The notes beneath the pieces were generated by a model. The model was given only the letters and a program-made list of their open reading frames with translations. It was not told the origin of the DNA and searched no databases. DNA of 20,711 bases, taken from UHGV virus genome UHGV-0163620; one strand, given 5' to 3'. The position numbers and the translations under genes were made by a program. The stretch comes from a virus. Shown in pieces: positions 10,477-20,711 of this stretch (position 1 is its first letter; each line of letters begins with the position of its first letter).

Positions 10477-11073
10477 ATGAAAACACGAGGCGAACGACTG
10501 AAAGCACGCCGTTTAGAGATGAAGCTGACGTTGCGAGAAGTTGCTGAGGCTGTCGATATCTCTATAGCAGGCGTCCAAAACTTAGAACGTGGCGACGTAA
10601 TGCCGTCACTGGAGATAGGTATTGCCCTGGCTAAGTGCTTACGCAAGCCAGTGCATTGGGTGCTATATGGGACAGAATATGACCCTGATCGCATTCCTGT
10701 TATTGGCACAACTGAAAGTGGGCCGGATGAAGAGTGGAAGCCGGGACAGGTTCCAAATACTGAGCGATTCCTGCCATTCATCAGCCAGCGCAATACTGTG
10801 TATGCGTTAACTATCAGCAATCTTACGCAGGGAAACTATCAGCCAGGCGATTTTCTCCTGGTCGATTCTGCGCTGGAACTGGTCCCCGGCGAGGATGTTC
10901 TGGTTCGTGATACTGCAGGAAATATCACTATCCAGCGCCTGGCCCGTTTTGATGATGAAAATTACTATCTGGATGGAACAAACTCACAACGCGCCATCTT
11001 CAGGAAAAGCGATCTTGAATTTGTTCACCAAATAGTCGGAACGATCAAATCATTCATGGTTGAGGGTAGATGA
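10477..11073 (+). CDS. cB: prophage repressor, CI/CB-like (N-terminal XRE HTH, C-terminal S24-peptidase-like domain)
   Basis: N-terminal HTH MKLTLREVAEAVDISIAGVQNLERG; C-terminal beta-rich domain alignable by eye to lambda CI but without an obvious GxSM serine motif or catalytic lysine. Confidence 0.75.
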   Translation: MKTRGERLKARRLEMKLTLREVAEAVDISIAGVQNLERGDVMPSLEIGIALAKCLRKPVHWVLYGTEYDPDRIPVIGTTESGPDEEWKPGQVPNTERFLPFISQRNTVYALTISNLTQGNYQPGDFLLVDSALELVPGEDVLVRDTAGNITIQRLARFDDENYYLDGTNSQRAIFRKSDLEFVHQIVGTIKSFMVEGR

Positions 11074-11318: not shown

Positions 11319-14300
11319 ATGACATTAAACGATTTCTATGCGGATCGCTTTGGCAGCGATCCGTTCTCGCTAATTGAAGCAGCACGGGATGAACTAACCG
11401 AGCTGGCACAGATGGCTGGTATCAACTGGCCTGCCTGTTCCGACAACATCCAACTCAACCCTCGCGGGGGGGTTGAGCGTTACTCTTCATACAATAAAAC
11501 ATCTCCAGAAGCTCTCGAAAAGAGCCTGAAAGGACGCGTAGAAATTTACTCCAGGCTGGAACACAGCAAAGGGATTGATTACCCGTTCATTAACTTCGTC
11601 CATAAAGGCAGCGATGCTGGCTCATGGAGCGGTTTCTCCTTCCTGTTTTCTGAATATCGCCGTGAGCAACAACGGAATAATGCGACCGTGGTCGCACAAC
11701 CGGAAGAAGAACGGGAAAGAATAGAACGTCAGGCCGAAGCACGTCGTCGCCGTGAAGAACAAAAACGAATTAATGACCTGAAAAACAACCAAATGGACCA
11801 TGAACGTTTGCTGGGATGGCTGGCATTCCACAGCGCGTGGGAACATGCTCCGGCTGAAGACGGCTCATGGCCATATGCGATTAAAAAAGGTATTCGTGAC
11901 GTTTTTAGTTCATGTGATGTGCGTCGCGTGACCAGTCACGACAGTGCGAAATGGAGCCGGGGGTCAACCACATATATGGCTATCCCTCTGGCTCACCTGG
12001 ACGGTCGTTATGATGGTCGTATTGTGGGTTGGCAGCGAATCGACAAACAAGGTGGGAAATACCAGACCAGCGCAGTAACCAGCGGCGATTTCGTCGGTGC
12101 CTGCTTTGTTATCGGTGAGCTGAAAGGGGCGCAAAACATCGCTGTTACAGAAGGTTTTGCTACTGGTGCATCCATCTGGCTTGCCACGAAAAAAGATAAA
12201 CGCTTTGACGCTGTGGTTGTCGCTGTATCCGCTAACAACATGGTTCATGTTGTGGAACAACTGGTAAACATGTACCCGGCGGCAAAAATCACCTGCGCAC
12301 TGGATAATGACCGGAAATCTGCCACAGAAGGAAAAGGGAATACCGGCCTGCGGACTGGCTATGAAATCTTATCGAAATTCAACGATGTCCGCTGCGTCTA
12401 CCCAACTTTTGAAGACGATCCGCAAATGGAGTGCAGTGACTTCAACGACCTGCACAAACTACGTGGACTTCGTGAAACAGCACGTCAACTATTTGCAACA
12501 GCAAACCGCCTGAAAACCGGCACTGATTTGCTATCTCTGACGCTCAACCGCCTGAAGACAATTAAGCGGGATAACCGTCGTACTTTTGCCAAAGAGCTGC
12601 TGAGAGCGGTGGATATTGGCATGCTAACCTGTCCGGTTCCTAACAGTCCGTCAGATTTATTTAACATGTTCTGCATCGTTCTGCGTGAAATGGGACTGGA
12701 AAATATCTATCGTGCTACGGTAAAAGACCACATTGCCCGTCGCCTGAATAAAAAGTGCCGTATTGCCCAGGCTCCGCGCTCTTTCAGCGAACGCATAACT
12801 GATCCCAATAAACGACCTCAACATATCACCTATAAGCGTTTTGAAACTTCGGTAATGACCGATGATGTCCTGAAGTACGTGCAATCACTACAGGGGATAG
12901 TCATCGTCCGTGCTGGTATGGGTTCCGGCAAATCTACTGGATTGTTACGACCGTTAATGCATAGCTCAGAACGTGGTATCTCTGTTGCTCACCGTGTCTC
13001 CCTTATTGGTGGCCTGTGGGAAATGATGACAGAAGGAAAAGGTGTAAAAGCCGATATCCTGCACTATCAGGATCCTGGCTATCAGGAAATGGCTCCATAC
13101 GCCAGTAAACTGACCATCTGCATAAACTCGATTGTTAAAAACTGCTGGCAACCGTTGATGCGCCAGCACGACTATTTTGGCTTTGACGAGGCCACACAAG
13201 GGCTACGTGCCGTTCTTTCCGGTCGGGCTATGGAAAACCCGGTGGCTGTATTCAATACGCTAATTGACGCGCTGGCCAGAACGGAACAACACCCAATCAT
13301 GGTGGATGCTGATGCGAACGATCTGCTGGTTGACCTGGCTGAACTGGCTATGAAACGCCGTGAAGAACTAGGTTTACCGGCATGGCTGCAGATCCACGTA
13401 ATTGAATTACCTGTTGATGTTCGCAACCGCGAAACAGGTGAGCCAATCCGGGTTTTTTATACAGAAAAAGATCGCATCATGACCGAGGTGGTGAAAGCTG
13501 TATCGGATGGCGAAAAAATTATGTTGGCCACCGACAGCTCCACCTTTGCAGAAGATGTGACCGCCACCCTGAGAATGCATTTCCCTGGCAAGAAATTTCT
13601 GTGCGTAAACCAGAAAAGCAAACAGGATGAAGAAGTCGATGCCTTTACCAGCCAGCCAAAAGTAATGGTGATGAAATACGATGGACTGATCTACAGCCCG
13701 TCGATTTCCTCCGGGGTGTCATTTGAGAAAAAACATTTTGACCGTCATTTCGGCATGTTCTGCGGTGAAGTTGTGCCCAGCGACGCAGTGCAAATGCTAC
13801 GCCGCGACCGTACAGCAAAAGAATTTATTATTGGCTTTGATAAAGCCCGTGCAAAACGCGAGACTGATCCGCAAAAAATAGAACGTGCATTCGCCCAGGC
13901 ATTACTTGCTACCGCAGGCATGAACGGTGAACTGACGGATGTCATTTTCGATGGCGACCGTATATCAATGGGGGTAGCCAATACCGACTTTACCAGGATG
14001 AAAATTAAAGCAGCCGCAATTGAAGCGTCTGCGCGTAACGACTACGCCAGCAACATGATCTGCATCATGCACAGCGACGGTTATAAGGTATCACCATTAG
14101 CTACCGATTATGCCGCGAACGATTTTGGTAAAGAGCTGCGCAAAGAAGCGCGGGATATTGTGTGGGAACAGACGCTGGATCTGCACCTCAATACAGAGAC
14201 ACCAGAAGAATCAGAGCGTGAAGAACTACTAAAAAAACGTGCGCTAACGCTTGAAGAACAGGCAAAACTGGTCCGCTGGGATATTGAGAACGAACTGAAA

Positions 14301-15302
14301 TTACCGGTTGAAGAAGGCACACTGAAATTCTATTTCGATGGCGCTCGAGACAAAATTCGCCGTTATGAAACGATGCTGCTTGATGAAGTCACAGCCCGTC
14401 GTTATGACCGTGAAGAAGCGGCTATCAATTTTACATACGCATATCGCCAGACCGGACAGTGGCAATATTTTGTGGTGACCGCGATGACACGCGAGCAGGC
14501 TGATGATGTATTCAAAGCGAAATTTCCGGGAATAATCGACTACAAGGTAAAAGCCACCCCAGCTGTTGAGGTCGGCATGCGCGGATTCTATGCGCTTAAA
14601 TCAGCAACTCTCCGGCAGTATTTTATCGACTGCGGTATCGACCCTGAAACTATGACTGGCGAAGCGACGCAGGAACGCCTTAAGTTCGCTCGAGATAATC
14701 TCATGACAGCAGAACGCCGTGACCTGTTGAATAACGTTCTGCGCATTGGTGGTTTTATGACACCAAAAGGGAAGCCTAAAGTGCCGGAAGCACTGTTTAA
14801 AAACATCTGCGACTCTCTCGGCCTAAAAACAGGAAAACGTCGCGGCAGAGATGGCGATAAGCGCCCGACATTGCGTTTTGTTGAGCCTGAGTCTGTAGCA
14901 TTTATGCTTGATATTCTTGCGCAACGTCAGGAGGACGGTATGACGTTGAAAGCTCGCAAGGCAGAAAAATCAACGACCGAAGTGGATCGCGATTTGTCAT
15001 TAAATATATATATGAATGGTGAAACGAGATCCACAAACACGGAGGAACAGGATCCCCCTCGTTCAGCTATATCACAGGCTTTGGCTGTATTGCCGGTGGC
15101 TGTTCCTGAGTCCTGGGCGATGAGTGCTCTGCCATCAGCCGAACTGGAATCTATCAGGGGGTGGTCAGTTGACAGCATCGCATACACGTTTGCAGCCCTT
15201 TATATGACTGAGTTTATGGATTTGCTGTCCGGTCATGAGATTAAGTTGCTGAAGGCTTTTATAGGCCCACGACATGCCAGCGATGAGTTTTGTGTAGTTT
15301 AG
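11319..15302 (+). CDS. repA: RepA-like multidomain replication protein (primase + helicase/origin-binding), 1327 aa
   Basis: Toprim-like segment (VTEGFATGAS ... ALDND); Walker A VRAGMGSGKST and Walker B FGFDEAT; size and architecture match N15 RepA as recalled. Confidence 0.85.
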   Translation: MTLNDFYADRFGSDPFSLIEAARDELTELAQMAGINWPACSDNIQLNPRGGVERYSSYNKTSPEALEKSLKGRVEIYSRLEHSKGIDYPFINFVHKGSDAGSWSGFSFLFSEYRREQQRNNATVVAQPEEERERIERQAEARRRREEQKRINDLKNNQMDHERLLGWLAFHSAWEHAPAEDGSWPYAIKKGIRDVFSSCDVRRVTSHDSAKWSRGSTTYMAIPLAHLDGRYDGRIVGWQRIDKQGGKYQTSAVTSGDFVGACFVIGELKGAQNIAVTEGFATGASIWLATKKDKRFDAVVVAVSANNMVHVVEQLVNMYPAAKITCALDNDRKSATEGKGNTGLRTGYEILSKFNDVRCVYPTFEDDPQMECSDFNDLHKLRGLRETARQLFATANRLKTGTDLLSLTLNRLKTIKRDNRRTFAKELLRAVDIGMLTCPVPNSPSDLFNMFCIVLREMGLENIYRATVKDHIARRLNKKCRIAQAPRSFSERITDPNKRPQHITYKRFETSVMTDDVLKYVQSLQGIVIVRAGMGSGKSTGLLRPLMHSSERGISVAHRVSLIGGLWEMMTEGKGVKADILHYQDPGYQEMAPYASKLTICINSIVKNCWQPLMRQHDYFGFDEATQGLRAVLSGRAMENPVAVFNTLIDALARTEQHPIMVDADANDLLVDLAELAMKRREELGLPAWLQIHVIELPVDVRNRETGEPIRVFYTEKDRIMTEVVKAVSDGEKIMLATDSSTFAEDVTATLRMHFPGKKFLCVNQKSKQDEEVDAFTSQPKVMVMKYDGLIYSPSISSGVSFEKKHFDRHFGMFCGEVVPSDAVQMLRRDRTAKEFIIGFDKARAKRETDPQKIERAFAQALLATAGMNGELTDVIFDGDRISMGVANTDFTRMKIKAAAIEASARNDYASNMICIMHSDGYKVSPLATDYAANDFGKELRKEARDIVWEQTLDLHLNTETPEESEREELLKKRALTLEEQAKLVRWDIENELKLPVEEGTLKFYFDGARDKIRRYETMLLDEVTARRYDREEAAINFTYAYRQTGQWQYFVVTAMTREQADDVFKAKFPGIIDYKVKATPAVEVGMRGFYALKSATLRQYFIDCGIDPETMTGEATQERLKFARDNLMTAERRDLLNNVLRIGGFMTPKGKPKVPEALFKNICDSLGLKTGKRRGRDGDKRPTLRFVEPESVAFMLDILAQRQEDGMTLKARKAEKSTTEVDRDLSLNIYMNGETRSTNTEEQDPPRSAISQALAVLPVAVPESWAMSALPSAELESIRGWSVDSIAYTFAALYMTEFMDLLSGHEIKLLKAFIGPRHASDEFCVV
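11681..11696. other. sopC-like 16-bp inverted repeat TGCGACCGTGGTCGCA, copy 4, inside repA coding sequence
   Basis: Exact 16-mer encoding residues A-T-V-V-A of RepA (codons 122-126). Confidence 0.6.
11927..11940. other. 14-bp palindrome CGTGACCAGTCACG, copy 2, inside repA coding sequence
   Basis: Exact copy of the 5872-5885 site; encodes R-V-T-S-H-D of RepA; 246 bp downstream of sopC-like copy 4. Confidence 0.55.
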
Positions 15303-15319: not shown

Positions 15320-15586
15320 ATGATGCAAGAGTGCCTCGTTTTGATTGAAGGGTATGATCCGTATGTTGTTAACGTCAGCAGAATGGATACTGGCTATAGC
15401 GATTACAAAACTGGTCGAGAACTGCCGTTCACCATCATCAGGATGAATGGCTTTGGCGATGATGATGCTGTTTATTGCTGTATTGCCAGCGATAAAAACA
15501 TGGAAGACCGGACAGATGAAGCCCGTATGCTATTGAGGAAATATAAGGTAAAGCCGTTATCAGAGAATAACGCTGAGAGGGGTTAA
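15320..15586 (+). CDS. hypothetical protein, about 89 aa (start ambiguous)
   Basis: ORF immediately after repA; ORF-track start at 15290 overlaps the repA end, so the tandem ATGs at 15320/15323 are preferred. Confidence 0.45.
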   Translation: MMQECLVLIEGYDPYVVNVSRMDTGYSDYKTGRELPFTIIRMNGFGDDDAVYCCIASDKNMEDRTDEARMLLRKYKVKPLSENNAERG

Positions 15587-15588
15587 AA

Positions 15589-15984
15589 ATGGCAGTTCAA
15601 TCATACAAATACGAATCCCCTTTGGATAAGGGATACATTCGTATCAAGTTAAGTCGTTCTCAGCATAAGGCTATTTTTAAGGTAAGGAAAATTCGCATAT
15701 TGGATGCGTATGCGTATTACTACAACGGTGAAAATGTTGTTGTTGAACACTTTCTTGCACGATGGTTTGTAGCTCTGATTTTTGTCCCTCTCCTGTTAAT
15801 TGGTACTTTTGTGGATGGTTTTCCTAGTACATGGCGGGAGATAAAGAAAGGCTTATTCCCGCGTAAGTACGGCAGATTTTCGCAAGATAGCTGGCGAGTT
15901 ATACCTGGTAAACATTCTGTAGATGAGCAACCGATTGTTGATTACTGGTTGAAGCGTATGGCTGATGCTAAAAAAGTTGATTGA
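15589..15984 (+). CDS. hypothetical single-pass membrane protein, 131 aa
   Basis: Good Shine-Dalgarno (GAGAGGGG); hydrophobic helix WFVALIFVPLLLIGTFV; translationally adjacent to the previous ORF. Confidence 0.55.
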   Translation: MAVQSYKYESPLDKGYIRIKLSRSQHKAIFKVRKIRILDAYAYYYNGENVVVEHFLARWFVALIFVPLLLIGTFVDGFPSTWREIKKGLFPRKYGRFSQDSWRVIPGKHSVDEQPIVDYWLKRMADAKKVD

Positions 15985-16073
15985 ATAGTGATGACTGTTC
16001 AAGTTAAACCGTTCTCGGCATATTTTATTTAATGGAATAACATATTATTAATCAAATAGGTTAAGTTAATATT

Positions 16074-16886
16074 ATGCGTAACAAAAAAACAACAGCTTTA
16101 TTACTCTCTATCTTGTTATTATCTGGATGCACTTATCAATATGATAATAAGGCATCAACGGACGTTGAGTATAAATTCGAAAAAGAAAAAAGAGTACCTA
16201 TCAACTCTGTTGGTGATTTTAGCAGCAAAATACTCACAGGTAAGGAATTTAATAGAATTATTGCATCAAAGATAGATGATGGTTCATGGCGTGGATATGT
16301 CGTTCACTCATTAACATACGCGCCATACAACAACGTTTTAACATCTCAAGGTTTGTCTATCCCTAGAAGTATCACATACTCAGGAACATATCTTAACCGT
16401 GATTTTGCTGAGAATAGCGGTAGTGATAGCGTGATAACATCTCGAGATATGTCTGGATGGTATGGTTTTCATGTCGATTCCTCTGAAATAACAAAGCATG
16501 GAAGCTATGTTGGTGCTAATGCTTTTGGAATATCTGCTGATGTAGAAGTGTTAAATACTTTAGGTGCCGAAATTATCTTTGGTAGTACACAAATAAATGA
16601 AGGGAACCCTGAAACAATATGGGCAGATATTGATATAAAAGGACAAATGCCAAAAGATGTTAATGTAAAAGACCTTAGAATTGAATATTTAGCAAAGATA
16701 AATGGGTTAAGCAGCAATCATATTGATATAACATCACCTACTATTTTTAACCCGTCAGATATGAGCCATAAAACTCAGGTTTTTATGGGTGAGTTATTAG
16801 CCGCGCGCCTAATAAATATTAAAACGGGAGAAATTTATCCAGTACAGCTAGAGTGGGTGTTCCGTTCGCGTGAGGCTTTCTTATAA
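16074..16886 (+). CDS. lipoprotein, 270 aa, in a compositionally AT-rich insert
   Basis: Signal peptide with lipobox LLSGC; coding sequence visibly AT-rich relative to neighbours; no family recognised. Confidence 0.7.
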   Translation: MRNKKTTALLLSILLLSGCTYQYDNKASTDVEYKFEKEKRVPINSVGDFSSKILTGKEFNRIIASKIDDGSWRGYVVHSLTYAPYNNVLTSQGLSIPRSITYSGTYLNRDFAENSGSDSVITSRDMSGWYGFHVDSSEITKHGSYVGANAFGISADVEVLNTLGAEIIFGSTQINEGNPETIWADIDIKGQMPKDVNVKDLRIEYLAKINGLSSNHIDITSPTIFNPSDMSHKTQVFMGELLAARLINIKTGEIYPVQLEWVFRSREAFL

Positions 16887-16947
16887 CGGAACAATAACAT
16901 TGTTCATGTTCTGATCGTTTGTTCAAGCAAACTATAAAAACACCTGT

Positions 16948-16967
16948 CCCCGTGACTGGTCACGGGG
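16948..16967. other. 20-bp perfect palindrome CCCCGTGACTGGTCACGGGG containing copy 3 of the 14-bp dyad site (16951-16964)
   Basis: Reverse-complement orientation of the 5872 and 11927 sites; lies between the lipoprotein stop and the immA-like promoter, about 20 bp upstream of its -35. Confidence 0.55.
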
Positions 16968-16987
16968 TAAAATGTCTTTGCAAATTA

Positions 16988-17017
16988 TTGACGTGTGCGT
17001 CGTTTTGGAGGTAAAGT
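16988..17017 (+). promoter_or_regulatory. candidate promoter of the immA-like antirepressor operon
   Basis: TTGACG (16988-16993), 18-nt spacer, TAAAGT (17012-17017); judged by eye. Confidence 0.35.
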
Positions 17018-17078
17018 CACCTCGCTGCGGTAAATCCCGCAGTCGGGACTTCGCAATCCTGGCAAAACGAAGCGCACA

Positions 17079-17100
17079 ACACGCGCCAGCGTGTTTTTTT
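17079..17100 (+). terminator. intrinsic terminator/attenuator in the immA-like leader
   Basis: 6-bp stem ACACGC/GCGTGT with 4-nt loop followed by seven T (17094-17100); about 77 nt downstream of the candidate start site. Confidence 0.55.
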
Positions 17101-17131
17101 GTGTGTACAGACCTGCGCATATCCGAATTAT

Positions 17132-17211
17132 GGTGGCTCAGGTGGGGCTGACTTCGGTCGGGCCGGTTTCTTCGTTTACCGGTATTGCGAACCCCGCCTG
17201 GGCTACCACCA
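17132..17211 (+). ncRNA. tRNA-like structured RNA, candidate c4/CA-type antisense regulator (RNase P substrate-like)
   Basis: 5' GGUGGCU pairs with 3' GGCUACC (7 bp, two G-U) followed by ACCA; internal GAC-UUCG-GUC and CCGGU-N10-ACCGG stem-loops; two blocks complementary to 17221-17240 downstream. Confidence 0.4.
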
Positions 17212-17266
17212 ATAAAGAGATTCGCAACTCTGGTGGTAGCACGACCAATAAAACGGAGTGCATACC

Positions 17267-17431: not shown

Positions 17432-17661
17432 ATCAGGTAAAAATGAACACTGTTGGCCTGCTGGAATCGTTGGATGAACGTCTGGCTCAGGTCTATGCGC
17501 TCGTATCATCAGCCCATCGGACAGTCTCCAGTTGTGAGGCGTCGATTTACCTCTCAGAGGCTGGAAAACTTCTGCAGATTGCGTGTGAGTTAACGCATGA
17601 AGCACAGGGATATTCTGCGTCTCTCTCGTCGCACTTGCTGCGCGATAAGGAGGCTGAATGA
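17428..17661 (+). CDS. hypothetical protein, 77 aa, antirepressor-operon gene
   Basis: Translationally coupled on both sides (ATGA overlaps at 17428 and 17658). Confidence 0.5.
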   Translation: MNQVKMNTVGLLESLDERLAQVYALVSSAHRTVSSCEASIYLSEAGKLLQIACELTHEAQGYSASLSSHLLRDKEAE

Positions 17662-18431
17662 GCGCGTTAGCAGTCTTTTCCTTTCAGGAAGAGCATCAGG
17701 TACGTGTAGTGATGATTAACGGCGATCCGTGGTTTGTGGCGAATGATATTTGCAATGCTTTAAGCATCCAGAATGTCACACAAGCTATCGCTAGATTAGA
17801 TGAAGATGAGCGATCTATGTTTAACATAGGCCGTCAAGGTCAAGCCAATATCATCAGCGAATCAGGTCTTTACACCCTCATTCTCCGCTGCCGTGACGCG
17901 GTGAAGCAAGGCACAACAGCTTGGCGGTTTCGCAAATGGGTAACGAACGAAGTCTTGCCCTCTATTCGCAAAAATGGAGAGTACGTTTACATCGAGCCTG
18001 AGCCAATGCGAGCAGCGGAGCCGTTGAACGGGAGGCAGAAAGCGTATCTGCGAGGGCTGATTAACGATATAGCACAAAGTTTTCGGTGCCGAAATGCCTG
18101 GATCAGTGGAATATGGTTGGCTTTGCGTCGGGCGTGTCGTAATCCATCCCCGAACCCCATAACGGTTGATGATTTGCCAGCAATTGCGGCAGAACTGCGC
18201 AGGATTTTGACGGCTGCTGAGTCGGCATTGAGGAACATGCGCACGTATGAACGGGAGTTGTTGCGTGATGTTGTTCGTGGGGGTAGGCGGAGTATGTCGT
18301 GTGGTGATTTGCCCATCATCGATATCAACTCTGATCTGGAAAAGGCGTTACCCGCACATTTTGAACTGGCAGTTCAAAAACTTGAGCAGCTATCCGCGCA
18401 GTTAAAGCCAGCAGAAATCACTAATAAATAG
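17658..18431 (+). CDS. antirepressor with Bro-N domain
   Basis: N-terminal Bro-N pattern: FSFQEEHQVRVVMINGDPWFVANDICNALSI ... GLYTLI ... FRKWVTNEVLPSIRKNG. Confidence 0.8.
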   Translation: MSALAVFSFQEEHQVRVVMINGDPWFVANDICNALSIQNVTQAIARLDEDERSMFNIGRQGQANIISESGLYTLILRCRDAVKQGTTAWRFRKWVTNEVLPSIRKNGEYVYIEPEPMRAAEPLNGRQKAYLRGLINDIAQSFRCRNAWISGIWLALRRACRNPSPNPITVDDLPAIAAELRRILTAAESALRNMRTYERELLRDVVRGGRRSMSCGDLPIIDINSDLEKALPAHFELAVQKLEQLSAQLKPAEITNK

Positions 18432-18603: not shown

Positions 18604-20493
18604 TTAGCCGAAATATGTCAGCCATGCTAACTGCATTGCTGACATGGGGCTGTTTGCACTGCCTGACCACGCATAATTCTGGCCATTATAATGAAACTCG
18701 ACAACGTATGAGCCATCACCAATATTTCTCACTGGCTTAAATACCGGCTTAGATACAGGCGAAGAAGGTGCAGGCGGTTGCTGTTCTTCTACGCTCTCTT
18801 CCTCTTCCTCTATCTCAATTTCGTCGTCATCCAGATCGTCATCCTCTGATAATTCATCCGCCAGTTCAGGTATTGCTTCCAGTTCTTCTTCGTCAGGCAT
18901 AACGATTTCTGGAGTATCTATTTTCAGTTGCCATTGTCCGTTTTCGCCAACAAATTGCCCCAGAGCATCAGCAGCAAATTCCAGGTATCGACTAATCATT
19001 GTAGGGCTAAATTTGAATGCTCTTAGAGTGCTGTTCGTGATTTTTATAGAGGGGTCCTGCTCTACCAGCTGCTTAACTGTGTTATGCAGACGAACTCCGG
19101 CATCACCTCTGGCGAATCCTGGCATTTCTTCATCAAGCTGCTGCAATGCTTCCAGCCTGGTATTTTCGTTTCCAGTATTTGGCCTCCATGTCTTTGAGAA
19201 GTTGGCCAGCTTGAATTGCTTATAGTGTAATTGAGTGTTTTCATCGTCATGGCCTAAAATTTCCATAAAGAAAACATCCTCATCTACGTTTTTCCAACGA
19301 GGATCTACGCGGAAAAACATTTCATACGCAATACGGGCATAAATAGCACGACTATCTTTATAAACACGGCGGTCATCTTTGAAAAATGATTTAACCCACG
19401 GGTTAAAAGCCTTTGCTAATATGGCATTAATCCGTCCGTTTTCAGAGCGTGTGTCGTTATCTCCATAACCTTTAACGACATCATCAAAATCAGATGCTGC
19501 TGGGCATGAGCGAAGTACATTTATTAAATAAACAAATGTTTTTGCTTCGCATAATGTATATATTTTTCTGGTTATATCATCAGAAGTTCTTTTTTTTGCT
19601 TGGCCTAAAAAATCAACGGTATACTTACCAGAAACAGTAAATGTACCTTGATACATAATCTCAATCATTCGTCTTCCTGACAATGCAGCAAGTGCAAATG
19701 CCAAAGGAGCCATACCTGAACGAGTGTTTAGATTATTTAATGTAGCAGGGCTATTTATAATATCGTAAATAGCTTGCATATATTTAGGGTAATCAATGAC
19801 CACCACGTTACGTTTCTTATTGTGCAGAACGTCTGCCCATCGTTGCTGGATAGATGCGCGTTCGGCAGGGCTTAGTTGAAGATGATAGAGAATCTCATGG
19901 TTAACTTTTAGCTGATTCAACTCCTCAAGTAAGGCAGATCCTTGCTGTAGTAATTTATATAAATAATCGCGCTTATCTTTCCAGTTATCGCTAGTTAAAT
20001 CAGAAATGGCGAATTGCCACTCTTTATATTTATTTGATAATTTTAATAACTTATTATGACTTTTGTTATCGCCAATTCTGATATTAGATAAATCTTCTGA
20101 TAGAGGGAGAATTAATTTTAATTTTGCCTGTAAAGCTGACATTCTCTGGCGAATATCGGCAGCAGGTAGAGAAAGCCATGACAATAGCTCCTCATTATAT
20201 AAAGGATACTTTTCAGATAGGCGATGTATATTTTTTTCAAAGCTATGATGAAGTTTATCATCAAACCGTTTTCTGGCCCTGCTCATATAGGCATTGAATG
20301 TGTTGGCTGTAATTCTTTTTTCTAATCCTTTCCCCCTAAACTTTCGCTTGTCATTAAATAATGCATTTTTAAATTTTAATGCAACAGCCTTTATTTTTTT
20401 TGTTTTCTCCCCTTGAGGACGGTCAGAGTTATCTATTGACTCAACATCGCTAACAAGTGAGTTTATTAATTCACCGATTTTTACTTTGCTCAT
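18604..20493 (-). CDS. telN: protelomerase (telomere resolvase), TelN-like
   Basis: 629 aa; N-terminus MSKVKIGELIN and long stretches match phage N15 TelN as recalled; acidic C-terminal region; AGGAGAGG Shine-Dalgarno; adjacent palindromic target site. Confidence 0.95.
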   Translation of the reverse strand: MSKVKIGELINSLVSDVESIDNSDRPQGEKTKKIKAVALKFKNALFNDKRKFRGKGLEKRITANTFNAYMSRARKRFDDKLHHSFEKNIHRLSEKYPLYNEELLSWLSLPAADIRQRMSALQAKLKLILPLSEDLSNIRIGDNKSHNKLLKLSNKYKEWQFAISDLTSDNWKDKRDYLYKLLQQGSALLEELNQLKVNHEILYHLQLSPAERASIQQRWADVLHNKKRNVVVIDYPKYMQAIYDIINSPATLNNLNTRSGMAPLAFALAALSGRRMIEIMYQGTFTVSGKYTVDFLGQAKKRTSDDITRKIYTLCEAKTFVYLINVLRSCPAASDFDDVVKGYGDNDTRSENGRINAILAKAFNPWVKSFFKDDRRVYKDSRAIYARIAYEMFFRVDPRWKNVDEDVFFMEILGHDDENTQLHYKQFKLANFSKTWRPNTGNENTRLEALQQLDEEMPGFARGDAGVRLHNTVKQLVEQDPSIKITNSTLRAFKFSPTMISRYLEFAADALGQFVGENGQWQLKIDTPEIVMPDEEELEAIPELADELSEDDDLDDDEIEIEEEEESVEEQQPPAPSSPVSKPVFKPVRNIGDGSYVVEFHYNGQNYAWSGSANSPMSAMQLAWLTYFG

Positions 20494-20657
20494 CTTTCCT
20501 CTCCTGATTATCCGCTCGGATTATCGTAACACAATTTGAGAATAAGATAACTAATAACGCGTTAACTTAGGCACAAACTAACAGAACACAATAACGGGCA
20601 ATAAATAAAAACACAATATCAGAACGCTAAAATTTGTTCCTTGACTTTGTTCTGAAA

Positions 20658-20711
20658 ATTAGCACATAATTTCCCATTATACGCGCGTATAATGGGAAAT
20701 TATGTGCTAAT
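20658..20711. other. telomere resolution site (telRL-like), perfect palindrome of at least 54 bp truncated by the window end
   Basis: All 27 base pairs around the centre (between 20684 and 20685, core TATACGCGCGTATA) verified complementary; located 165 bp upstream of telN. Confidence 0.85.

What the first reader, a model, noticed from the sequence alone, without database searches (positions are those of the whole stretch)
15320..16886. Compositionally foreign accessory cluster between repA and the antirepressor operon
Three consecutive plus-strand genes with no recognisable family: a roughly 89-aa protein, a 131-aa single-pass membrane protein and a 270-aa lipoprotein. The lipoprotein gene is strikingly AT-rich (by eye about one-third G+C against roughly half in the flanks; not computed). 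This is the signature of a recently acquired moron, and membrane/lipoprotein morons in temperate phages are often superinfection-exclusion or defence functions. Best candidate here for an undescribed system.
Basis: partly seen in the sequence, partly recalled or inferred. Interest (0 to 1): 0.7.

Follow-up and report, generated by a model that had tools for sequence, protein, structure and literature searches.

The report
Orphan lipoprotein moron in N15-like phage-plasmid
Only the third of the three genes is a foreign insert: a single AT-rich gene for an exported lipoprotein of an uncharacterised family that hops between prophage tail operons, phage-plasmids and tiny plasmids, and most likely protects the carrier cell from infection by other phages, although that has not been tested.

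Summary
The window is an N15-like linear phage-plasmid: cB repressor, repA, three small genes, antirepressor operon, protelomerase. The three genes exist as described, but they are not one unit. ORF1 (15320-15586) is the conserved N15 gp36 homologue. ORF2 (15589-15984) is a single-pass membrane protein that recurs downstream of repA in telomere phages. Only ORF3 (16074-16886, 270 aa, lipobox LSGC) is a cassette. Homology to sister elements stops at about 15995 and resumes at about 16905. Its G+C is 35.7% (GC3 26.6%) against 49-50% in the flanks.

Three of about 17 E. coli N15-like plasmids carry ORF3. The one majority-type plasmid inspected and phage PhiR46_1 carry a 95-aa secreted protein in the same slot.

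ORF3 belongs to a rare lipoprotein family (phrog_13753; 21 representatives among 1.84 billion proteins). It has no Pfam, NCBIfam or PADLOC match. Its predicted fold is confident (pLDDT 85) and has no neighbour in PDB or BFVD.

Five divergent relatives lie directly upstream of the tape-measure gene, three of them after a recognised tail-chaperone gene, which is the HK97 gene-15 exclusion-moron site. Others follow a CI repressor or are the main or sole annotated cargo of 2.7-4.4 kb plasmids.

Best reading: a stand-alone, prophage-expressed envelope lipoprotein that blocks phage entry. The function is inferred, not shown.

The parts
15320..15586 (+). ORF1, 88 aa, acidic and soluble. It is the homologue of N15 gp36 and is conserved core of the repA operon, not part of the cassette.
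   Evidence: It is 77-78% identical to N15 gp36 and 99% identical to YDC107_1 'putative gp36'. It matches phrog_18790 at E 1e-54. G+C is 43.4% and GC3 is 48%.
15589..15984 (+). ORF2, 131 aa, basic, single-pass membrane protein of unknown function. It is a semi-conserved resident of the repA-telN interval and is not part of the cassette.
   Evidence: One hydrophobic span lies at about residues 55-78. It matches phrog_15458 at E 9e-92. It is 99% identical in PhiR46_1 and YDC107_1, and 44% identical in the Yersinia telomere phage P840, where it lies between repA and telN. It is absent from N15, which has gp35, gp34 and gp33 instead. It is found next to either alternative cassette.
16000..16900 (.). 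Single-gene AT-rich cassette (moron), replaced by other cargo in sister elements.
   Evidence: blastn homology to PhiR46_1 and YDC107_1 ends at 15990-15999 and resumes at 16901-16909. G+C is 34.6%. No flanking direct or inverted repeats were found.
16015..16043 (+). The only candidate sigma-70 promoter upstream of ORF3 (TCGGCA-17-TAACAT, 8 of 12 matches). It is weak.
   Evidence: It came from a relaxed custom scan. The stricter scan found no + strand promoter or terminator between ORF2 and ORF3.
16074..16886 (+). ORF3, a 270-aa prolipoprotein. The signal peptide is residues 1-18 and the lipidated Cys19 is encoded at 16128-16130. Residue +2 is Thr, which is the outer-membrane sorting type. A disordered tether of about 17 residues follows, then a mainly beta-strand body. 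The protein is a member of phrog_13753.
   Evidence: ORF and lipobox. Family. AlphaFold2 model: pLDDT 84.8, pTM 0.78. No fold neighbour was found. G+C is 35.7% and GC3 is 26.6%.
16936..16979 (+). Stem-loop (CCCCGTGAC..GTCACGGGG) just beyond the cassette, in DNA shared with other N15-like elements. It is a possible end of the repA-operon transcript.
   Evidence: Inverted repeat I1. It lies inside the segment that aligns with N15, PhiR46_1 and YDC107_1. The terminator scan did not call it.

Best explanation
**What it is.** ORF3 alone is a horizontally mobile, single-gene moron. It sits at the distal end of the prophage-expressed cB-repA-gp36-ORF2 gene series of an N15-like phage-plasmid, just upstream of the antirepressor promoter.

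**The product (shown by sequence).** It is made as a prolipoprotein. After lipidation at Cys19 it would be exported and, because residue +2 is not Asp, sorted to the outer membrane facing the periplasm or the cell surface.

**The function (inferred).** The lipoprotein acts on its own as a superinfection-exclusion factor. It binds either an envelope component that incoming siphoviruses need or the ejected tail-tip/tape-measure apparatus itself. DNA entry is then blocked without killing the cell.

**Fit to the family's distribution.** Blocking a particular entry machinery would explain why most distant relatives are wedged next to the tape-measure and tail-tip genes of lambdoid prophages, where the exclusion gene stays linked to the machinery it excludes. 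It would also explain why the gene is useful as the only recognisable cargo of very small plasmids.

**ORF1 and ORF2.** They are ordinary residents of the repA operon and are not partners of ORF3.
For: **Cassette**
- The boundaries are sharp and the composition is foreign.
- Among about 17 E. coli N15-like plasmids, 3 carry ORF3. PhiR46_1 and the one majority-type plasmid inspected carry a 95-aa signal-peptide protein in the same slot; the other 60%-coverage records were not opened. YDC107_1 has a 74-aa protein and N15 has gp35-33.
- A 59%-identical copy sits at the same slot of a divergent Enterobacter N15-like plasmid, behind a different neighbour.

**Export**
- 17 of 18 family members have a lipobox Cys and none has Asp at +2.
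- Two Cys columns, equivalent to I186 and V257, are both present in 10 of 18 members and both absent in 8 of 18. That is the pattern of a disulfide, and so of an extracytoplasmic protein.

**Binder rather than enzyme**
- Only Y145, N149, A150 and G152 are invariant. There is no conserved acidic, His, Ser or Cys catalytic set.

**Works alone**
- It is the sole annotated cargo of 2.7-kb ColE1 plasmids, and sits with only mobilisation or replication-type genes on 3.7-4.4 kb plasmids. It also lies on Rep3/MobA plasmids. These cluster members are seen on hundreds of contigs.

**Expressed in the prophage state (inferred)**
- It is co-directional with cB and repA, and no terminator was called before it.
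- The Xanthomonas relative lies directly behind a CI/S24 repressor gene.

**Link to the entry machinery**
- Five representatives, each below 50% identity to the others, lie immediately upstream of the tape-measure gene. Three of them follow a recognised tail-chaperone gene.
- One lies between the tape measure and tail M, one between M and L, and one between K and I next to a Lom-like protein.
- The chaperone/tape-measure junction is exactly where HK97 gene 15 sits. gp15 is a prophage-expressed envelope protein that blocks DNA injection (PMC3594210).
- All 15 homologues examined are AT-richer than their flanks.

**Precedents for lipoprotein exclusion**
- T5 Llp acts on FhuA (PMC9586334), Cor acts on FhuA (PMC3594210), and TP-J34 Ltp is a surface lipoprotein exclusion factor (PMC3952083).
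Against: - No experiment has been done, and there is no sequence or fold similarity to any known exclusion protein.
- At 251 mature residues the protein is three to four times larger than Llp or Cor.
- Tail-operon morons also include non-defence genes such as lom, so position is suggestive and not diagnostic.
- In this window the gene is not linked to tail genes.
- An own promoter is weak at best, so expression in the lysogen is assumed from operon layout and from what I recall of N15 repA regulation.
- The fold searches covered only PDB and BFVD. The AlphaFold database library was unavailable.
Confidence: 0.45

Rival explanations
1. It is a lysogenic-conversion envelope factor that benefits the host in ways unrelated to phage. 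Examples would be serum or complement resistance, adhesion or colonisation, or envelope stress tolerance, in the manner of lambda Bor, Lom or plasmid TraT.
For: - It is an outer-membrane-type lipoprotein of about the size of TraT.
- One relative sits beside a Lom/Ail-like gene.
- Carriers are mostly clinical or animal Enterobacteriaceae, and the small plasmids are widespread in Salmonella, E. coli and Klebsiella.
Against: - No member matches Pfam TraT, Bor or Ail/Lom models.
- The repeated placement directly against the tape-measure gene in five lineages, and behind a CI repressor in a plant pathogen (Xanthomonas), fits a phage-directed role better than an animal-host role.
Confidence: 0.2
2. 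It is an orphan immunity or resistance lipoprotein against an imported toxin such as a bacteriocin, a telocin, or a periplasm-acting contact-dependent or type VI effector. It would act either by neutralising the toxin or by occluding its receptor.
For: - The repA-telN interval is the telocin:immunity cargo locus of Klebsiella telomere phages (PMC12042878).
- Small ColE1-type plasmids classically carry colicin immunity genes.
- Receptor-blocking lipoproteins such as Cor also protect against colicin M (PMC3594210).
Against: - No toxin gene lies next to ORF3 here or in any of the roughly 20 contexts examined.
- The reported telocin immunity protein ImmA is a four-helix inner-membrane protein, not a lipoprotein.
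- A survey found no telocin homologues in Escherichia/Shigella N15-like elements.
- Tail-operon placement is not expected for an immunity gene.
Confidence: 0.12
3. It is a phage-cycle protein rather than a host-protecting one. Examples would be a periplasmic helper of tail or DNA delivery, of lysis, or of progeny protection that acts during lytic growth only.
For: Most distant relatives are co-oriented inside late tail operons, and no separate promoter or terminator was looked for there. T5 Llp also serves to protect progeny from receptor in cell debris (PMC9586334).
Against: - The same family is the only recognisable cargo on plasmids that have no phage genes.
- One member sits in a lysogeny module.
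- The gene is present in only 3 of about 17 otherwise similar E. coli N15-like elements, so it is dispensable for the phage cycle.
Confidence: 0.08
4. It is a non-functional or decaying passenger with no selected function.
For: No function is known, and the family is rare: 21 representatives among 1.84 billion.
Against: - The ORF is intact and at least 95% conserved across the seven Escherichia (E. coli, E. fergusonii, E. albertii) plasmids found, six of them at least 98.5%.
- The family shows conserved motifs, a co-varying Cys pair and a confident fold prediction.
- It is kept as the main cargo on tiny high-turnover plasmids seen on hundreds of contigs.
Confidence: 0.05

Closest known systems
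HK97 gp15 moron (superinfection exclusion, blocks DNA injection in a tail-dependent way)
   Same: Both are single-gene AT-rich morons and both encode envelope-located products. Five distant relatives of ORF3 lie directly upstream of the tape-measure gene, three of them after a recognised tail assembly chaperone gene, which is the site HK97 gene 15 occupies.
   Different: gp15 is a small YebO-like inner-membrane protein, not a lipoprotein. No homology is claimed: no direct comparison with gp15 was run, and the model has no fold neighbour in PDB or BFVD. In this window the gene is in the repA operon, not in the tail operon.
Receptor-blocking outer-membrane lipoproteins Llp (T5) and Cor (N15, phi80, HK022)
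   Same: All are lipoproteins encoded by siphoviruses, genetically associated with tail or receptor-binding genes, that act alone to exclude phages using the same entry route (PMC9586334, PMC3594210).
   Different: As I recall, Llp and Cor are about 60-80 residues, whereas ORF3 is 251 mature residues. There is no sequence match: one family member touched the Cor PHROG at E 0.0095, a hit I take to be signal peptide only. The target is unknown.
Ltp of Streptococcus thermophilus phage TP-J34
   Same: It is a prophage-expressed surface lipoprotein that blocks DNA injection (PMC3952083). As I recall from the literature, its target is the tape-measure protein.
   Different: It comes from a Gram-positive host, and as I recall it has a helical repeat fold and lies in the lysogeny module. 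No homology is claimed: neither its sequence nor its structure was compared directly here.
Telocin:immunity cassettes of Klebsiella telomere phages
   Same: They occupy the same genomic hot spot, the repA-protelomerase interval of N15-like telomere phages, with exchangeable cargo expressed in the carrier cell (PMC12042878).
   Different: Those cassettes hold a bacteriocin plus an inner-membrane immunity protein. Here there is one lipoprotein gene and no toxin.
TraT surface-exclusion lipoprotein of F-like plasmids
   Same: It is an outer-membrane lipoprotein of similar size, carried on mobile elements. As I recall, it has an exclusion or serum-resistance role.
   Different: No match to the Pfam TraT model appeared among the 18 members scanned. 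The gene contexts are different.

Membership tests
phrog_13753 / the lipoprotein family defined here (alignment A2) | Significant profile match over the conserved C-terminal half, including the Y-x-G-x-N-A-F-G and PT..P...LAARL.N.K motifs | tested here: met
   ORF3 alone matches phrog_13753 only weakly (E 0.0011), but 15 of 18 aligned relatives match it, the best at 4e-10. The exhaustive profile search recovered the relatives at E 1e-5 to 1e-119. The motifs are invariant or nearly so.
Bacterial lipoproteins (Lgt/LspA substrates) | N-terminal signal peptide ending in a lipobox [LVI][ASTVI][GAS]C | tested here: met
   The N-terminus reads MRNKKTTALLLSILLLSGC, with Cys19. 17 of 18 relatives have the equivalent Cys. 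Lipidation itself cannot be tested with these tools.
Moron (Hendrix/Juhala sense) | An extra gene between conserved neighbours, with deviant composition | tested here: met
   The boundaries are at about 15995 and 16905 against sister genomes. G+C is 35.7% against 49-50%.
Moron (Hendrix/Juhala sense) | Own promoter and terminator giving expression from the repressed prophage | tested here: inconclusive
   Only one weak promoter candidate was found (8 of 12 matches). No terminator was called inside the cassette. Expression may depend on read-through from the repA operon.
Cor / Llp receptor-blocking lipoproteins | Sequence membership in the Cor or Llp families | tested here: not met
   Neither Pfam nor PHROG gave a hit for ORF3. 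One relative touched the Cor PHROG at E 0.0095, a hit I take to be signal peptide only.
Cor / Llp receptor-blocking lipoproteins | Inactivation of a defined outer-membrane receptor and exclusion of the phages that use it | not testable with these tools
   This needs plating and adsorption assays.
Known anti-phage defence systems (PADLOC-DB 2.0) | A match to any defence-system protein model | tested here: not met
   None of the three proteins matched any family at E <= 1.
Telocin:immunity cassette | A bacteriocin gene adjacent to a cognate immunity gene in the repA-telN interval | tested here: not met
   No toxin-like ORF lies between 15303 and 17257. The only cargo is the lipoprotein.
TraT / Bor / Lom lysogenic-conversion envelope proteins | A match to Pfam TraT, Lambda_Bor or Ail_Lom | tested here: not met
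   None of these models appeared among the Pfam hits of the 18 family members at E <= 0.1.

The most novel reading that the evidence does not exclude
The lipoprotein would found a previously unrecognised, structurally novel family of stand-alone entry-blocking proteins. These would target the tape-measure or tail-tip DNA-delivery step of siphoviruses from the periplasmic side of the outer membrane. They would circulate as one-gene cassettes among prophage tail operons (at the HK97 gene-15 site), telomere phage-plasmids and very small ColE1-type plasmids. Many so-called cryptic 2.7-4.4 kb enterobacterial plasmids would then be phage-resistance plasmids.
Probability: 0.35. Interest if true: 0.65.

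Novelty: new variant of a known kind. Interest (0 to 1): 0.48.

Why it matters
If the lipoprotein excludes phages, three things follow.
- It would add a new, larger and structurally unrelated family to the short list of envelope lipoproteins that block phage entry (Llp, Cor, Ltp).
- It would give a function to a recurring unknown gene at the classic HK97 moron site.
- It would explain what widespread 'cryptic' small plasmids of Salmonella, E. coli and Klebsiella are selected for. That matters for predicting phage host range and for phage therapy.

The analysis also shows that the repA-protelomerase interval of Escherichia N15-like elements is an exchange slot for exported envelope proteins. 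This parallels the telocin slot of Klebsiella telomere phages.

If the lipoprotein has no phage phenotype, it remains an ordinary uncharacterised moron.

Tried and rejected
**Searches that gave nothing informative**
- Pfam, NCBIfam and PADLOC scans of all three proteins.
- PDB sequence searches with the 5-sequence and 18-sequence profiles. They returned only signal-peptide noise.
- The first AlphaFold run, with 5 close sequences, was unusable at pLDDT 46. The 18-sequence run was good.
- The afdb50 library was unavailable.
- tblastn of ORF3 against the phage collection found nothing.
- The genome-contig scan found no relatives.
- The broad alignment was too divergent for the search for related loci.
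- A second word-indexed protein search added only one relative.
- A literature search for five accession numbers of family members found no paper.
- Searches on small-plasmid lipoproteins found nothing specific.

**Ideas considered and rejected**
- *The three genes form one system.* Rejected on distribution.
- *ORF2 is a homologue of N15 gp33.* Both have one membrane span at a similar position, but BLASTP finds no similarity.
- *ORF3 belongs to a telocin/immunity pair.* There is no toxin gene.
- *The 95-aa alternative cassette is a Spackle homologue.* That is the depositor's label only. PHROG, Pfam and PDB sequence searches did not reproduce it.
- *Flanking repeats mark an insertion mechanism.* None were found.
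Full report
**1. Setting**

The window is an N15-like (Ravinvirus-type) linear phage-plasmid.
- On the + strand lie a CI/LexA-type repressor (10477-11073), the 1327-aa RepA (11319-15302) and the three ORFs of the finding.
- Next comes the antirepressor operon. Its leader holds a promoter-like site (16988-17017), an isrK-like RNA (17024-17099) and a C4 antisense RNA (17126-17213). It is followed by icd, a gp31-like gene and a BRO/Ant gene (17658-18431).
- The protelomerase is on the - strand (18604-20493).
- Cro, Q, an exonuclease, a methylase, lysozyme and Rz lie upstream on the - strand.
- The order matches N15 genes 38-37-36...30-29.

**2. The observation**

All three ORFs are real and have the stated sizes. 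ORF2 has one strong hydrophobic span at residues ~55-78. ORF3 starts MRNKKTTALLLSILLLSGC, a canonical lipobox with Cys19 and Thr at +2.

| Region | G+C | GC3 |
|---|---|---|
| repA | 48.8% | 47.9% |
| ORF1 | 43.4% | 48.3% |
| ORF2 | 39.9% | 35.6% |
| ORF2-ORF3 spacer | 24.7% | - |
| ORF3 | 35.7% | 26.6% |
| Next 370 bp | 50.1% | - |
| Whole window | 44.4% | - |

The lowest 813-bp window in the whole sequence starts at 15971. telN is also AT-rich at 38.9%.

**3. The three genes are not a unit**

- ORF1 is the N15 gp36 homologue. It is 77-78% identical to the N15, Enterobacter and Klebsiella versions and matches phrog_18790 at 1e-54, so it is conserved core.
- ORF2 (phrog_15458) is absent from N15 itself, which has gp35, gp34 and gp33 there. 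It is 99% identical in PhiR46_1 and YDC107_1. It is 44% identical in the Yersinia telomere phage P840, again between repA and telN. Weaker relatives occur in early regions of unrelated siphoviruses.
- blastn against sister elements shows homology running through ORF2 to 15990-15999. It then stops and resumes at 16901-16909. The cassette is therefore ~900 bp and holds ORF3 only.

The slot holds different cargo in related elements:

| Element | Content of the slot |
|---|---|
| PhiR46_1 and the one majority-type E. coli N15-like plasmid inspected (pZ1323HEC0355-3) | 95-aa protein with a signal peptide |
| YDC107_1 | 74-aa protein |
| N15 | gp35-gp33 |

Among 5426 complete E. coli genomes, about 17 carry such a plasmid and 3 carry ORF3. 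A 59%-identical ORF3 homologue sits at the same slot of a divergent Enterobacter cloacae N15-like plasmid, behind a gp33-like gene rather than ORF2. No repeats flank the cassette.

**4. What ORF3 is**

It has no match in Pfam, NCBIfam, PADLOC or the PDB sequences.
- A word-indexed search found only 4 close clusters, 53-63% identical.
- An exhaustive profile search of 1.84 billion representatives found only 21 proteins at E <= 1e-3. Most are 240-300 aa.

Aligned, the family shows these features:
- a lipobox Cys in 17 of 18 members, and no Asp at +2;
- a variable N-terminal half;
- a conserved C-terminal half with invariant Y145, N149, A150 and G152 (the motif Y-x-G-x-NAFG) and a near-invariant PT..P...LAARL.N.K..G..YP block;
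- two Cys columns (equivalent to I186 and V257) that are both present in 10 members and both absent in 8, never singly. This pattern indicates a disulfide and therefore an extracytoplasmic protein.

No conserved catalytic-type residues exist, which favours a binding role (inference). Fifteen of the 18 match phrog_13753, a phage family of unknown function.

**5. Where the family lives**

*Plasmids*
- Copies 62% identical to ORF3 sit on 3.7- and 4.4-kb MOBP plasmids of Klebsiella and Enterobacter, beside only mobilisation or replication-type genes.
- A 27%-identical member is the only gene besides rop on 2.7-kb ColE1 plasmids.
- Their 90%-identity clusters are seen on hundreds of contigs of Salmonella, E. 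coli and Klebsiella, always labelled hypothetical or lipoprotein.
- Others lie on a Rep3/MobA/ParE plasmid and on a relaxase/resolvase element.

*Prophages*

| Position | Representatives |
|---|---|
| Immediately upstream of the tape-measure gene (after a recognised tail-chaperone gene in P0012, P0014, P0018) | P0012, P0014, P0016, P0018, P0019 |
| Between tape measure and tail M | P0008 |
| Between tail M and L | P0010 |
| Between tail K and I, next to a Lom/Ail-like gene and two antirepressors | L014 |
| Directly behind a CI/S24 repressor, co-directional (Xanthomonas) | P0026 |

In all 15 loci examined the gene is 2-19 G+C points below its flanks.

**6. Mechanism**

*Shown*
- ORF3 is an AT-rich single-gene cassette.
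- It has the signals of an exported lipoprotein.
- It belongs to a rare conserved family with a co-varying Cys pair.
- It occurs alone on plasmids.
- It recurs next to tape-measure and tail-tip genes.

*Established knowledge*
- The chaperone/tape-measure junction is the site of HK97 gene 15, the first moron described. Its envelope product is expressed from the prophage and blocks DNA injection in a tail-dependent manner (PMC3594210).
- Cor and Llp are phage lipoproteins that block FhuA (PMC3594210, PMC9586334).
- Ltp is a lipoprotein that blocks DNA injection (PMC3952083).
- The repA-telN interval is a cargo slot in Klebsiella telomere phages (PMC12042878).

*Inferred*
- ORF3 is expressed in the lysogen. 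It lies at the end of the cB-repA-gp36-ORF2 series with no called terminator before it, and only a weak promoter of its own.
- It is tethered to the outer membrane.
- It blocks the entry of a class of siphoviruses, by binding either a host envelope component or the incoming tail-tip/tape-measure complex.

I put this at about 0.45. The rivals are:
- a Bor/TraT-like host-fitness factor (0.2);
- an orphan immunity or toxin-resistance lipoprotein (0.12);
- a lytic-cycle helper (0.08);
- a functionless passenger (0.05).

**7. Comparison and novelty**

By position and logic the closest systems are HK97 gp15, Cor/Llp and Ltp. ORF3 does not qualify as a member of any known exclusion family. Pfam, PHROG and PADLOC scans returned no such family, and the model has no fold neighbour in PDB or BFVD; gp15, Llp and Ltp were not compared one-to-one. 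ORF3 is also several times larger than Llp or Cor. A survey of clinical phage-plasmids reported no complete defence systems and no telocin in N15-like elements, and no paper mentions the accessions of family members.

I therefore rate it a new variant of a known kind: an envelope-protein moron that is probably an exclusion factor. It is of moderate interest because it yields a sharply testable hypothesis, and because it may give a function to common cryptic small plasmids.

Noticed in passing
window 17024-17099 and 17126-17213 (+): Rfam gathering-level matches to isrK (52.8 bits) and to C4 antisense RNA (82.3 bits) lie in the leader of the icd/antirepressor operon, preceded by a promoter-like site at 16988-17017. 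This is a P1/N15 immA-type RNA-controlled anti-immunity region.
   Followed up: partly
L002 4439-4726 (PhiR46_1); L026 2454-2741 (pZ1323HEC0355-3): The alternative content of the same slot, in phage PhiR46_1 and the one majority-type E. coli N15-like plasmid I opened, is a 95-aa protein with a signal peptide and four Cys (phrog_26765). One depositor labels it 'Spackle exclusion protein'. PHROG, Pfam and PDB sequence searches did not reproduce that label. Both alleles of the slot therefore encode exported proteins.
   Followed up: partly
window 19200-20700: There is a second AT-rich stretch (31-40% G+C). It covers the 5' half of the protelomerase gene and the DNA beyond it towards the telomere end. 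It is comparable in depth to the ORF3 cassette.
   Followed up: no
L008 8541-12738 (CP088738.1); also NZ_LT906558.1, NZ_CP014491.1, IMGVR_UViG_3300045988_113976 (L010/L011): Several public 'circular' records of 56-77 kb hold two copies of the ORF3 region. In CP088738.1 two head-to-head telomere resolvase genes are annotated. This looks like assembly through the hairpin telomere of a linear replicon, giving a palindromic duplication.
   Followed up: no
L014 2685-5891: In one lambdoid prophage the tail K-I junction holds a four-gene insert: a Lom/Ail-like outer-membrane protein, a P22-type antirepressor, a BRO protein and then the lipoprotein homologue.
   Followed up: no
alignment A2, columns equivalent to ORF3 residues 186 and 257: Two Cys columns co-occur perfectly: both are present in 10 members and both absent in 8. 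The ORF3 clade has replaced the pair with Ile and Val.
   Followed up: yes
L007 5902-6252 (N15 gp33) versus window 15589-15984: N15 gp33 (116 aa) and ORF2 (131 aa) occupy the same relative position. Each has a single hydrophobic span with a similar R-(L)-W-F-V start, yet BLASTP finds no similarity. They could be very distant homologues or analogues.
   Followed up: partly
L001 123-4103 (YDC107_1): In the YDC107_1 record the repA gene is annotated as three separate CDS, and the protelomerase is likewise split. This suggests frameshifts or sequencing errors in that record.
   Followed up: no
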